Assembly: GCF_048403405.1 (NCBI RefSeq)
Contig: NZ_CP183135.1
Direction: 5' to 3' (one strand)
Source of the DNA: Escherichia coli
Lineage (GTDB): Bacteria; Pseudomonadota; Gammaproteobacteria; Enterobacterales; Enterobacteriaceae
Length of the DNA stretch: 64,000 nt
Part shown: one piece after another, positions 36,001-39,000 of the stretch
How positions within the stretch are numbered: the stretch's first letter is position 1
Layout: each line of letters opens with the position of its first letter
Position numbers: made by a program

Positions 36001-39000
36001 ACGCGCGTGAGGCTCTTGTTCGTTAAGCGGATACGTATATCCTGTACAATAATCAGATATACCTCACGGGGTCTAACCCTTTATCATCAACGAGTTGCAG
36101 ATCAGATGGTCATACGGTTTCTTCCTGCTTTAGCTTGCTGAATACAGCCTGAAATCATCACCGTAATGCAATGATGCCCAGCACAGCCTTGCATTTTTGG
36201 CGGCGATGGCCACAACAGCGCGCCAGTATCCTCTGCGTTCGACCAGTGAACAGACCCAACGACTGAATAAGTCAGTCCTTTTCTCAGCGCCAATCAGTAC
36301 TGAACGAGCCCCCTGTACCAGAAGCGTTCGCAGATACGAATCACCGGCTTTTGTTATCCTGCCTAACTTCGACTTTCCGCCGCTACTGTATTGCGATGGA
36401 GTCAACCCCAGCCAGGCCGCCAGTTGCCGTCCATTTTTAAAATCATGTGCATTACCGATACAGGCAACCAGAGCACAGGCAGTTGTGGGACCAACTCCTT
36501 TTAGCTTCATCAGCCGCTGACTGCGGTGATCTGTTTTGGCTATGCGGGACAAAATTCGGTCATATTCAGTGATGTTAGCTTCAATGCGATCAACGTGTTC
36601 CAGTAAATCATCTACACATTGCTGAACCTGAAGAGGTAAAGAGCTCTTCTGCGCAGAAACCATGTGCCGCAAAGCATCTGTACTTTGTGGGGCAATGACG
36701 CCGAATTCTGATATCAACCCTCGAAGACGATTATATGTTGCTGTTTTCTCTTCGATAAAACCCTGTCGGTTACGATGCAGACACTGCATCGCCTGCTGGC
36801 TCTCGTCCTTAACTGGAACAAACCGCATATGTGGGCGACGAACCGCTTCGCAGATAGCCTGAGCATCAGCTGCATCATTTTTCCCTGATTTACCGGCCAT
36901 GCGGTATGGAGATACAAATTTAGCGGCCATCAGACGCGGCTCATGACCATATTGCAGAAACAATCTTGCCCAGTAATAAGCCCCGGAGCACGCCTCCATC
37001 CCGATAACACAGGGCGGTAAACTTGCAATCAGCCCGGGAAGAGCTGCGCGGGTTACTCTGGATTTCACCAGAACGGTTTTGCCATTTTGGTCAACCCCAT
37101 GAACAGCGAACACATTTTTAGCAAGATCGATACCGATAGTAGTGATGGTCATAACGAATCTCTCCAGGCTATGTTTACCCCATGATTGCACAAGAGTTAA
37201 TCAGGTGCATATCCAGGGGAAGTCCCTTCCATTCGTTAGGGGCATTTTTTAACCGATACTGATAAGTAACTGATTGATTCATCGTGATCAGCTATCGCCT
37301 TTAAGTTATTGCTTTTCTCTTATCGCATTTAGGTTATCTCATGTCCCTAAAGGTCTGCCAAACACCGTATAGCGTCCGAGCGCGATAACGCAACCGTACA
37401 ATATTGTACGTTTCCCAAACGCAGCCCTTAAACGACAGTAATCCCCGTTGATTTGTGCGCCAACACAGATCTTCGTCACAATTCTCAAGTCGCTGATTTC
37501 AAAAAACTGTAGTATTCTCTGCGAAACGATCCCTGTTTGAGTATTGAGGAGGCGAGATGTCGCAGACAGAAAATGCAGTGACTTCCTCATCTGGTGCAAA
37601 ACGAGCATACAGAAAGGGTAAACCTTTGAGTGAAGCAGAACGACAGAGAGCAGCTTCTGCGCGCAAACGATCTGTATGTAAAGAGATCAAGGTTTTCGTC
37701 AGACCAGAACTGAAAAACTGCCTTACCAGTCTGTGTGCAGAGGAAGGGGTAACTCAGGCAGAGTTGATAGAAAGGCTTATCGAGAAAGAGGCCTGTCACC
37801 GGAACATGATGTGATGGGGTCACATTCTTGCTAGTTTTTTCTGTCAGTGCTAGATTACTGATCGTTTAAGGAATTTTGTGGCTGGCCACGCCGTAAGGTG
37901 GCAGGGAACTGGTTCTGATGTGGATTTACAGGAGCCAGAAAAGCAAAAACCCCGATAACCTTCACCAGGTTTGGCGACTAAGAGAAGATTACCGGGGCCC
38001 ACTTAAACCGTATAGCCAACAATTCAGCTATGCGGGGAGTATAGTTATATGCCCGGAAAAGTTCAAGACTTCTTTCTGTGCTCACTCCTTCTGCGCATTG
38101 TAAGCGCAGGATGGTGTGACTGATCTTCAACAAACGTATTACCGCCAGGTAAAGAACCCGAATCCGGTGTTTACACCCCGTGAAGGTGCAGGAACGCTGA
38201 AGTTCTGCGAAAAACTGATGGAAAAGGCGGTGGGCTTCACCTCCCGTTTTGATTTCGCTATTCATGTGGCGCATGCCCGTTCGAAGGGACTGCGTCGGCG
38301 CATGCCACCGGTGCTGCGTCGACGGGCTATTGATGCGCTGCTGCAGGGGCTGTGTTTCCACTATGACCCGCTGGCCAACCGTGTCCAGTGCTCCATCACC
38401 ACGCTGGCCATTGAGTGCGGGCTGGCGACAGAGTCCGGTGCAGGAAAACTCTCCATCACCCGTGCCACCCGGGCTCTGACGTTCCTGTCAGAGCTGGGAC
38501 TGATTACCTACCAGACGGAATATGACCCGCTTATCGGGTGCTACATTCCGACCGATATCACGTTCACATCTGCACTGTTTGCTGCCCTCGATGTATCAGA
38601 GGAGGCAGTGGCCGCCGCGCGCCGCAGCCGTGTGGAATGGGAAAACAGACAGCGCAAAAAGCAGGGGCTGGATACCCTGGGTATGGATGAACTGATAGCG
38701 AAAGCCTGGCGTTTTGTCCGTGAGCGTTTCCGCAGTTACCAGACAGAGCTTAAGTCCCGGGGAATAAAGCGTGCCCGTGCGCGTCGTGATGCGAACAGGG
38801 AACGTCAGGATATCGTCACCCTGGTGAAACGGCAGCTGACGCGTGAAATCTCGGAAGGGCGCTTCTCTGCCAGTCGTGAGGCGGTAAAACGTGAAGTGGA
38901 GCGTCGTGTGAAGGAGCGCATGATTCTGTCACGTAACCGCAATTACAGCCGGCTGGCCACCGCTTCCCCCTGAAAGTGATCTCCTCAGAATAATCCGGCC

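What the first reader, a model, noticed from the sequence alone, without database searches (positions are those of the whole stretch)
36030..37375. IS110-family element whose 5' non-coding flank could encode a bridge-RNA-like guide
The recombinase (36130..37152, minus) is DEDD/IS110-type. Members of this family are known to carry a structured non-coding RNA in the non-coding end that specifies target and donor sites. The ~220 bp upstream of the start (37153-37375) contains GC-rich stem candidates (CCAGGGGAAGTCCCTTCCATTCGTTAGGGG). A 19-nt motif near its 3' end (ATCAACGAGTTGCAGATCA, ~36088-36106) recurs with two changes at ~48966-48984 near the other IS110-family element.
Basis: partly seen in the sequence, partly recalled or inferred. 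Interest (0 to 1): 0.5.

Follow-up and report, generated by a model that had tools for sequence, protein, structure and literature searches.

The report
IS1111-type insertion sequence with 3′ guide RNA

Summary
The recombinase call is right: 340 aa, DEDD plus Transposase_20 domains, and the NCBIfam "IS110 family RNA-guided transposase" model.

An uninterrupted target in other plasmids puts the element at 35867-37234 (1368 bp, minus strand). It has 12/13-nt subterminal inverted repeats, 6-nt and 3-nt terminal extensions and no target duplication. The upstream non-coding end is 82 nt and the downstream one 263 nt. This is the IS1111-group layout. The closest named relatives are IS1618 (87.5% nt) and IS5708 (78%).

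A covariance model built from the downstream region finds a full-length homolog after the transposase gene in about 50 relatives. In that alignment 32 of 41 pairs show compensatory changes.

Two loop segments (36044-36053 and 36019-27) match the two strands of the target, which is position 32/33 of a Tn3-family 38-bp inverted repeat. A third segment (35950-59) matches the right IS end plus the first target bases. All three covary with target or end sequence in relatives.

The 5′ flank has no such signal, and 141 of its 223 nt are not IS DNA. The "GC-rich stem" is the left inverted repeat plus target DNA. The 19-nt recurrence is chance-level.

This is a known kind of element, of low novelty.

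The parts
35867..37234 (-). Complete IS1111-group insertion sequence (IS1618-like), 1368 bp. A one-base ambiguity at the ends reflects a G shared by target and IS end.
   Evidence: Uninterrupted target sites in L005 and L006. Other copies end at the same points. It is 87.5% nt identical to copies annotated IS1618.
36130..37152 (-). Transposase/recombinase gene, 340 aa, with a DEDD RuvC-like N-terminal domain and a Transposase_20 C-terminal domain.
   Evidence: NCBIfam NF033542, 351 bits, profile positions 1-341 of 343. Pfam PF01548 and PF02371.
37229..37234 (-). Left-end terminal extension GAATGG (6 nt). Its first bases GAAT supply the last four bases of the predicted junction -10 hexamer.
37216..37228 (-). 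Left subterminal inverted repeat AAGGGACTTCCCC.
   Evidence: It is conserved in all relatives.
37153..37215 (-). Remainder of the 82-nt 5' UTR, with a small hairpin (GCAC...GTGC) and the ribosome-binding site GGAGAG. It has no guide-like features.
35945..36100 (-). Predicted long seekRNA/bridge RNA (156 nt) enclosed by helix P1 (36097-36100 with 35945-35948). The covariance-model hit spans 35927-36109.
   Evidence: Model R1 hit of 230.7 bits, with homologs in all relatives. In the homolog alignment 95.4% of cells are paired and 32 of 41 pairs carry compensatory changes.
35991..36090 (-). Target-binding arm (helices P2-P6, 100 nt). A 12x12-nt internal loop holds the two target guides around the hairpin GGATAtacgTATCC (36029-36042).
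36044..36053 (-). Guide 1. The RNA sequence AUUAUUGUAC is complementary to the top strand of the target at and to the right of the insertion point (GTACAATAAT).
   Evidence: It covaries with the target: CAAAACGTAC with GTACGTTTT, CATATCCTAC with GTAGGATA, and 9-10-nt exact matches in L037, L047, L050 and L058.
36019..36027 (-). Guide 2. The RNA sequence CUUAAC-G-AA equals the top strand of the left target half, the shared G and the first 2 nt of the left IS end, so it is complementary to the bottom strand.
   Evidence: It covaries with the left flank (CTTAGC, TTTACC, GCATAAG, ATAGC, GATGT, GAAAT, TTATC) and with the left-end start in L042 (GTA).
35961..35990 (-). Second arm (helices P7-P8): GGUC-C-GAAUCGauagCGAUUC-AUUAU-GGCC.
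   Evidence: Strong compensatory changes: one P8 pair occurs as CG 16, GC 12, UA 9 and AU 8.
35950..35959 (-). Junction strand UUUAUA-G-UAC. It equals the last bases of the right IS end (TTATA), the shared G and the first 3 target bases. It acts like a left-donor guide plus handshake bases.
   Evidence: TTATA/TTGTA covaries with the right end CCTTATA/CCTTGTA. TAC/TAG/TTT/TC follows the first target bases.
35994..36000 (-). CUUUCAU, a candidate right-donor guide (pairs with ATGGAAG or ATGAAAG of the left end). It overlaps the 3' strand of helix P2 (35991-35997), so its role is unresolved.
35886..35891 (-). TTGACT, the -35 hexamer of the predicted circle-junction promoter. After 17 nt comes TA|GAAT, which exists only when the right and left ends are abutted.
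   Evidence: Read directly from the sequence. No sigma-70-like promoter is found in the linear element. TTGAC is conserved in relatives.
35867..35881 (-). Right subterminal inverted repeat GGGGAAGCCCTT (35870-35881) plus the 3-nt extension ATA (35867-35869).
35835..35866 (+). Outer 32 bp of the target, a Tn3-family-type 38-bp inverted repeat (GGGGGCGGTTTGGAGATCGGACATTTTTGTAC). The remaining 6 bp (GTTAGG) are at 37235-37240.
   Evidence: Uninterrupted copies in L005 and L006. Relatives sit at the same position in similar repeats, including what I recognise from memory as the Tn1000 (gamma-delta) end sequence.

Best explanation
The feature is an intact IS1111-group member of the IS110 family, closest to IS1618. 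It spans 35867-37234 on the minus strand and sits at position 32/33 of a Tn3-family-type 38-bp terminal inverted repeat.

Its 263-nt non-coding region downstream of the transposase gene encodes a structured RNA of about 156 nt (a seekRNA, also called a bridge RNA). One arm of the RNA presents two loop segments. The 5' segment (AUUAUUGUAC) pairs with the top strand of the target to the right of the insertion point. The 3' segment (CUUAAC-G-AA) pairs with the bottom strand to the left of it, and the two overlap at a shared G.

A single-stranded junction segment (UUUAUA-G-UAC) matches the right IS end, the shared G and the first target bases. It plays the part of a donor guide with handshake bases.

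By analogy with ISEc11, ISPa11, ISKpn4 and IS621, the element is inferred to work as follows. It excises as a circle, and joining its ends creates the promoter TTGACT-17 nt-TAGAAT. That promoter drives transcription of the transposase and the RNA. The RNA-loaded DEDD recombinase then inserts the circle, in one orientation and without target duplication, into DNA that matches the guides.

Shown here: the element ends, the family layout, RNA conservation, base-pair covariation, and guide-target and guide-end covariation. Inferred only: transcription and processing of the RNA, circle formation, the strand-exchange chemistry, and the right-donor contact.
For: Ends and layout:
- The empty-site comparison gives exact ends and shows no duplication.
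- The element has 12/13-nt subterminal inverted repeats, extensions of 6 nt on the left and 3 nt on the right, an 82-nt 5' end, a 263-nt 3' end and a 340-aa transposase. These are the IS1111-family criteria set out in PMC11187229.

RNA conservation and structure:
[quoted passage not shown] The only other hit in the window is a weak one in the 3' region of the second IS.
- In that alignment 95.4% of cells are paired and 32 of 41 pairs carry compensatory changes. The covariation score is 0.395 against about 0.06 for slid controls, and 0 of 500 shuffles reach it.

Guide-target matching:
- Guide 1 lies at a fixed position and gives 8-10-nt exact matches to the cognate right flank.
- Cognate pairs reach a match of 7 nt or more in 46% of cases, against 6.5% for non-cognate pairs.
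- Three target classes among close relatives each carry a matching guide.
- Guide 2, the left-donor strand and the handshake-like bases covary with the left flank, the right IS end and the first target bases.
- The order of the matches, top-strand complement 5' of bottom-strand complement with an overlap at the insertion point, is the order reported for IS1111 seekRNAs (PMC11187229).
- The predicted sizes (100-nt arm, 156-nt whole) resemble the reported 82-96-nt and roughly 150-nt species.
Against: - There are no expression data for this RNA and no evidence of circles or of transposition by this copy.
- Thermodynamic folding of the single sequence is unremarkable (z = -0.93).
- Rfam 15 has no matching family, so there is no independent curated model.
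- The alignment used for covariation was fitted to the model's own structure.
- The window copy's flanks differ from its guides by one base on each side (GTACAAAAAT against GTACAATAAT, and CCTAAC against CTTAAC).
- Right-donor recognition is unresolved, because the candidate CUUUCAU overlaps helix P2, which itself shows compensatory changes.
Confidence: 0.88

Rival explanations
1. One reading: the guide (bridge) RNA is encoded in the 5' non-coding flank (37153-37375), as in IS621 and other IS110-group elements.
For: IS110-group elements do carry the bridge RNA upstream (PMC11208160). The 223-nt stretch folds slightly better than shuffles (z = -1.46). The 5' UTR has a small conserved hairpin.
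Against: Only 82 nt of the flank belong to the element. The covariance model finds nothing there. The longest target match in the 5' UTR is 4 nt, and there is no cognate-over-non-cognate signal in 41 relatives. The hairpin loop varies (TTAAC or TTAGC) without tracking the target. The 'stem' sequence is the subterminal repeat plus target DNA.
Confidence: 0.03
2. The 3' region is conserved as DNA, for example as transposase-binding sites or relics of past junctions, and no RNA guide is involved. Target choice would be made by the protein.
For: The segments identical to the left and right junctions (CTTAACGAA and TTTATAGTAC) could in principle be copies of junction DNA. There are no expression data here.
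Against: Compensatory base-pair changes in 32 of 41 pairs are what an RNA or single-strand structure predicts, not duplex binding sites. The guides change with the target while the protein stays 85-95% identical. The same architecture has been shown experimentally to act as RNA in ISEc11, ISPa11, ISKpn4 and ISPst6.
Confidence: 0.04
3. The 3' RNA is mainly a regulator of transposase expression (an antisense or attenuator-like element) rather than a guide.
For: In distant relatives a 9-mer in the 5' UTR is complementary to the 5' strand of helix P2 and covaries with it. The helix P2 region is almost invariant.
Against: That complementarity is absent from the window copy and its close relatives. 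A purely regulatory role does not explain the three segments that track target and IS-end sequences. A regulatory role could coexist with guiding.
Confidence: 0.05

Closest known systems
IS1618 (Yersinia pestis pMT1) and IS5708, named IS110-family (IS1111-group) elements
   Same: Full-length nucleotide similarity of 87.5% to IS1618-annotated copies and 78% to IS5708-annotated copies. The Y. pestis copy L016 is 93% identical in protein, has the same ends, the same RNA and the same type of target, GTACAATAAT... in a Tn3-family repeat. IS1618 has been reported inserted in a Tn3-family transposon (PMC6339943).
   Different: The window element is a diverged variant, below the level usually used for the same IS name. 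I could not query ISfinder, so its official name is unknown. Guide 1 differs by 2 nt from the L016 copy (ATTATTGTAC against GCTATTGTAC).
[quoted passage not shown]
   Same: The lifestyle is the same: orientation-specific insertion inside the 38-bp repeat of a Tn3-family transposon, with subterminal repeats and a 3' non-coding region. A copy lies in this same window (transposase gene 47776-48780, minus strand). Its 3' region gives a weak hit to the model and contains AAAACGGAA, complementary to its flank TTCCGTTTT.
   Different: The transposase lineage differs; there is only local nucleotide similarity at the N-terminal coding region. The subfamily of repeat targeted differs, and so does the insertion position inside it: about position 22 for IS4321/IS5075 against position 32/33 here.
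ISEc11, ISPa11, ISKpn4 and ISPst6 seekRNAs (Siddiquee et al. 2024, PMC11187229)
   Same: IS1111-family layout, with an RNA from the 3' non-coding region. The top-strand match lies 5' of the bottom-strand match and they overlap at the insertion point. Relatives show natural reprogramming of the guides. A junction promoter forms on circularisation. There is no target duplication.
   Different: Those RNAs were shown experimentally; this one is predicted. Their targets differ (a short linear site, REP sequences, attC sites). Sequence similarity to those elements was not measured here.
IS621 bridge RNA (Durrant et al. 2024 PMC11208160; Hiraizumi et al. 2024 PMC11208158)
   Same: It pairs a DEDD and Transposase_20 recombinase with one RNA that reads both the target and the donor. 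Bases next to the core match the non-cognate partner, like the handshake guides.
   Different: In IS621 the RNA is upstream of the gene, the guide order is reversed and the core is the dinucleotide CT. Protein similarity is confined to the C-terminal domain (E about 1e-8 to 1e-9 against IS621 and ISCro4 chains). Here the overlap is a single G, and the donor-matching strand lies in a multi-helix junction rather than a clear internal loop.

Membership tests
IS1111 group of the IS110 family | DEDD (RuvC-like) N-terminal domain plus a Transposase_20 C-terminal domain; transposase of 330-350 aa | tested here: met
   NF033542 at 351 bits; PF01548 and PF02371; 340 aa.
IS1111 group of the IS110 family | Subterminal inverted repeats of about 11-13 bp | tested here: met
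   AAGGGACTTCCCC (37216-37228) against AAGGG-CTTCCCC (35870-35881), with one indel.
IS1111 group of the IS110 family | Asymmetric terminal extensions beyond the repeats: 6-7 bp on the left and 3 bp on the right | tested here: met
   GAATGG (6 nt) on the left and ATA (3 nt) on the right, using ends fixed by the empty site. The shared G was assigned to the left end.
IS1111 group of the IS110 family | The longer non-coding region lies downstream of the transposase gene | tested here: met
   263 nt downstream against 82 nt upstream.
IS1111 group of the IS110 family | Site- and orientation-specific insertion without target duplication | tested here: met
   Empty and occupied sites differ only by the IS. 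All relatives have ...TAAC|IS|G... flanks in one orientation.
IS1111 group of the IS110 family | A circular intermediate whose abutted ends create a promoter | not testable with these tools
   At sequence level only: TTGACT, 17 nt, then TA|GAAT would form at the junction. Circles need PCR or sequencing.
seekRNA / bridge RNA | A conserved structured RNA in the long non-coding end | tested here: met
   Model hits in all relatives; 32 of 41 pairs with compensatory changes.
seekRNA / bridge RNA | [quoted passage not shown] | tested here: met
   36044-36053 (top strand) lies 5' of 36019-36027 (bottom strand), sharing the G.
seekRNA / bridge RNA | Guides change with the target in relatives (natural reprogramming) | tested here: met
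seekRNA / bridge RNA | Complementarity to both donor (IS end) halves | tested here: inconclusive
   The left-donor match TTATA/TTGTA covaries with the right IS end. The right-donor candidate CUUUCAU overlaps helix P2, which has its own compensatory changes.
seekRNA / bridge RNA | The RNA is expressed, binds the transposase and is required for movement | not testable with these tools
   This needs RNA-seq, co-purification and transposition assays.
IS110 group (IS621-like; bridge RNA in the left end) | A long left (5') non-coding end that encodes the bridge RNA, with no or very short subterminal repeats | tested here: not met
   The left end is 82 nt with no model hit or target complementarity. 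The subterminal repeats are 12-13 nt.

The most novel reading that the evidence does not exclude
The IS1618-like group may offer a natural series of reprogrammed guides aimed at different Tn3-family end-repeats: TIME-like, a repeat I recognise from memory as the Tn1000 (gamma-delta) end, and a further Tn3-family type. Its RNA architecture may also differ from IS621. The donor-matching strand lies in a multi-helix junction. The candidate right-donor guide is locked in a conserved helix (P2) that would have to open, which implies a conformational switch between a closed RNA and a donor-bound RNA. In distant relatives the same helix strand can also pair with the transposase 5' UTR, which would link guide folding to transposase expression.
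Probability: 0.2. Interest if true: 0.45.

Novelty: new member of a known kind. Interest (0 to 1): 0.25.

Why it matters
For genome annotation, this corrects the element's ends and places its guide RNA in the right non-coding end. It also explains why copies of this very common plasmid IS always sit at one position inside Tn3-type end-repeats. Full-length copies occur in about 990 plasmid records.

For the RNA-guided recombinase field, it adds a well-populated IS1111-group lineage. In this lineage the target guides, a donor guide and the handshake-like bases can be read directly from natural covariation.

It is not a new kind of system. The mechanism it points to has already been shown experimentally for other IS1111 members and for IS621.

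Tried and rejected
- **Rfam scan of 35000-38500 at E up to 10.** Only CopA, the IncFII replication-control RNA, is a real hit. No bridge or seek RNA family matched, so Rfam could not settle the question.
- **Single-sequence folding of both flanks.** The z-scores were -0.93 and -1.46, which is uninformative.
Rejected using empty sites.
A shuffle test over all 19-mers of the region gave 0.72 chance matches per region (the first attempt, timed out). The second copy is outside the other IS.
- **5' UTR as guide.** No cognate-target signal. The hairpin loop TTAAC/TTAGC does not follow the target.
- **Naming the IS.** The protein cluster look-up gave only 'IS110 family transposase'. Partridge and Hall 2003 is not in the held library. 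The names IS1618 and IS5708 came from RefSeq annotation of related copies. ISfinder itself could not be queried.
- **Solved structures.** Only the distant IS621 and ISCro4 matched, so no structure prediction was run.
- **Promoter scan of the linear element.** No sigma-70-like site was found. This fits a promoter that exists only at the circle junction.
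Full report
**What is at the locus**

The window is an IncF plasmid. Rfam finds CopA RNA at 37941-38031, and the repA2/copB and repA1 genes follow.

The ORF at 36130-37152 on the minus strand encodes a 340-aa protein. It matches the NCBIfam model 'IS110 family RNA-guided transposase' over its whole length, at 351 bits against a cut-off of 140. It also carries Pfam DEDD_Tnp_IS110 and Transposase_20.

**Where the element ends**

Related copies in other E. coli replicons align with the window only between about 35835 and 37255.

Two plasmids carry the same surrounding DNA without the IS: NZ_CP047008.1 (L005) and CP057992.1 (L006). 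Their sequence reads ...GTATGTGGGGGCGGTTTGGGAAACGGAAATTATTGTAC|GTTAGGGGCATTTTTTAACCG.... The window reads ...TTTTTGTAC|TATAAGGGC...[IS]...CCTTCCATTC|GTTAGGGGC....

The element is therefore 35867-37234, 1368 bp. One base, a G in transposase orientation, could belong to either side. There is no target duplication.

On the other side it adds 141 bp of non-IS DNA.

**Family layout**

In transposase orientation the left end is GAATGG|AAGGGACTTCCCC. The right end is GGGGAAGCCCTT|ATA. This gives 12/13-nt subterminal inverted repeats, with extensions of 6 nt on the left and 3 nt on the right.

The 5' non-coding end is 82 nt and the 3' one is 263 nt. These are the features that Siddiquee et al. use to separate the IS1111 family from the IS110 type (PMC11187229). 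Durrant et al. describe the same contrast: short left end, long right end and long subterminal repeats (PMC11208160).

Abutting the ends would create TTGACT, 17 nt, then TA|GAAT. No sigma-70-like promoter is found in the linear element. This matches the junction promoter known for this family.

RefSeq annotation of related copies names IS1618 (87.5% nt identity, Y. pestis pMT1) and IS5708 (78%).

**The target**

The interrupted sequence GGGGGCGGTTTGG.GA..CGGA.ATT.TTGTAC|GTTAGG has the form of a Tn3-family 38-bp terminal inverted repeat. The IS sits between positions 32 and 33.

Relatives from 79 genome loci sit at the same position and in the same orientation in similar repeats. One example is what I recognise from memory as the Tn1000 (gamma-delta) end: L015 has GTACGTTTTCGTTCCATTGGCCCTCAAACCCC. 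This parallels IS4321/IS5075, which target Tn21-family repeats.

**The RNA**

I aligned the 3' regions of 19 close relatives and folded the alignment. I then built a covariance model from it.

Searched against the window and 51 loci, the model gave these results:
- a hit at window 35927-36109 on the minus strand, at 230.7 bits;
- a full-length hit on the coding strand just after the transposase gene in all but four of the distant loci searched (55-68% protein identity; 46-107 bits; L059 partial, none for L044 and L054, and the L046 hit fell inside the CDS);
- a weak hit at 47581-47720 on the minus strand, which is the 3' region of the window's second IS;
- nothing in the 5' flank.

On the resulting alignment, 95.4% of cells are paired and 32 of 41 pairs carry compensatory changes. 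The covariation score is 0.395 against about 0.06 when partners are slid, and 0 of 500 shuffles reach the observed values. The alignment was fitted to the model, which favours the structure. Even so, pairs such as CG 16 / GC 12 / UA 9 / AU 8 are not explained by that.

The structure is as follows:
- P1 (36097-36100 with 35945-35948) encloses the whole RNA.
- A long arm, P2-P6 (35991-36090), lies inside it.
- A short arm, P7-P8 (35961-35990), follows.
- A 12-nt single strand (35949-35960) returns to P1.

The predicted sizes are 100 nt for the arm and 156 nt for the whole. They resemble the 82-96-nt seekRNAs and roughly 150-nt long forms measured for ISEc11, ISPa11 and ISKpn4.

**The guides**

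The long arm has a 12x12-nt internal loop around the hairpin GGATAtacgTATCC.

*Guide 1.* The 5' side of the loop contains AUUAUUGUAC (36044-36053), the exact complement of GTACAATAAT. That is the top strand at and to the right of the insertion point in the empty site. The window copy's own flank has one mismatch (GTACAAAAAT).

*Guide 2.* The 3' side contains CUUAAC-G-AA (36019-36027). This is identical to the top strand of the left target half, the shared G and the first two bases of the IS, so it is complementary to the bottom strand.

The top-strand complement comes first and the two matches overlap at the insertion point. Both points were reported for IS1111 seekRNAs.

*Covariation of the guides with their targets.* Among close relatives:
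- guide 1 CAAAACGTAC goes with the target GTACGTTTTC (L015, L018);
- guide 1 CATATCCTAC goes with GTAGGATA... (L022, L024, L025, L083);
- guide 2 CTTAGCGAA goes with the flank CTTAGC (L015, L024);
- guide 2 TTTACCGAA goes with CTTACC (L017).

Among distant relatives the same loop positions give 9-10-nt exact matches to quite different flanks (L037, L047, L050, L058). Guide 2 follows the flank in L050, L047, L058, L059 and L055. It even follows the changed IS start in L042 (GTA).

Overall, cognate RNA-flank pairs reach an exact match of 7 nt or more in 46% of cases, against 6.5% for non-cognate pairs.

*The junction strand.* The strand GUUUAUAGUAC (35950-35959 plus one base) equals the last bases of the right IS end, the G and the first target bases. 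TTATA/TTGTA tracks CCTTATA/CCTTGTA at the right end. The following 2-3 nt track the target: TAC, TAG, TTT, TC. This resembles a left-donor guide with handshake bases as defined for IS621 (PMC11208158), although the geometry differs.

*The right-donor candidate.* CUUUCAU (35994-36000) could pair with ATGGAAG or ATGAAAG of the left end. It overlaps helix P2, which has compensatory changes in L038, L080 and L042. I leave this contact unresolved.

The 5' UTR contains no target match longer than 4 nt in the window copy. It also shows no cognate signal across 41 relatives: 5% against 1.4% for a match of 7 nt or more. The 3' region gives 51% against 10%.

The 19-mer at 36086-36104 is real and lies in the RNA, forming the 5' strands of P1 and P2. 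Its 17/19 match at 48976-48994 lies upstream of chrA, outside the second IS. Matches of this quality arise by chance 0.72 times per region of this size.

**Comparison and verdict**

The element meets every sequence-level criterion of the IS1111 group and of its seekRNA/bridge RNA.

Expression, circle formation and the requirement for the RNA cannot be tested here. No Rfam family and no solved structure of an IS1111-group enzyme exists to compare against.

The result is a correctly re-annotated, ordinary member of a known class. Its natural covariation is unusually clean, but it is not a new kind of system.

Noticed in passing
window 35003-37432: The IS sits inside a small non-autonomous Tn3-derived unit (35008-37427; about 1.05 kb without the IS). 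The unit has near-identical outer inverted repeats (35008-35059 and 37376-37427, 98% complementary) and a perfect 5-bp direct duplication TTAAA (35003-35007 and 37428-37432). Joining the backbone with a single TTAAA gives a sequence found at 100% identity in 7 of the 8 records listed, and spanned over at least 80% of its length in at least 2866 IncF plasmids, between the DUF2726 gene and repA2. The unit carries a 140-aa ORF (35305-35727, minus strand) and two inner repeats. It looks like a mosaic of two TIME-like miniature elements.
   Followed up: yes
window 35203-35243: This is a second, unoccupied inner 38-bp repeat (reverse complement GGGGGCAGTCTGGAGATCGAAAAATTTTGAAC|GTTAAGC). Its left half, CTTAAC, matches guide 2 perfectly. 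Its right half, GTTCAAAATT, mismatches guide 1 at 4 of 10 positions (GTACAATAAT). That may be why it is empty.
   Followed up: partly
window 47521-48846 (transposase gene 47776-48780, minus strand): This is a second IS1111-group element of the IS4321/IS5075 type, inserted in a Tn21-type repeat (AAATAAAGCACGCTAAG at 48847-48863) next to chrA. Its 3' region gives a weak hit to the RNA model (47581-47720, E = 0.039). That region contains AAAACGGAA (47671-47679), complementary to its right flank TTCCGTTTT (47512-47520). So the window holds two RNA-guided IS that each target a transposon end-repeat.
   Followed up: partly
L034, L035, L057, L048, L058, L078, L066 (5' UTR about 29 nt before the ATG, and the start of the 3' RNA): In distant relatives a 9-mer in the transposase 5' UTR is complementary to the 5' strand of helix P2 of the 3' RNA, and the two covary: TCACATCAA with TTGATGTGA, CTCATCAAC with GTTGATGAG, and TCTCATCAA with TTGATGAGA. 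This may be a long-range or in-trans pairing that links the RNA to transposase expression. It is absent from the window copy.
   Followed up: no
L073 52-238; plasmid hits H189-H203: There are extra copies of the guide-RNA region without a full transposase gene. L073 has a second full-length model hit 2 kb upstream. Many plasmids carry only the right-end portion of the IS (query positions 1-205 up to 1-581). These could be truncated relics or solo RNA genes, like the extra ssr9 copies reported for ISPpu9 (abstract of PMC12288879).
   Followed up: no
window 37941-38031 (minus strand): CopA antisense RNA of the IncFII replicon (Rfam RF00042, 99.2 bits). The Tn3-derived unit carrying the IS is inserted about 125 bp upstream of the repA2/copB start codon at 37557.
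   Followed up: no
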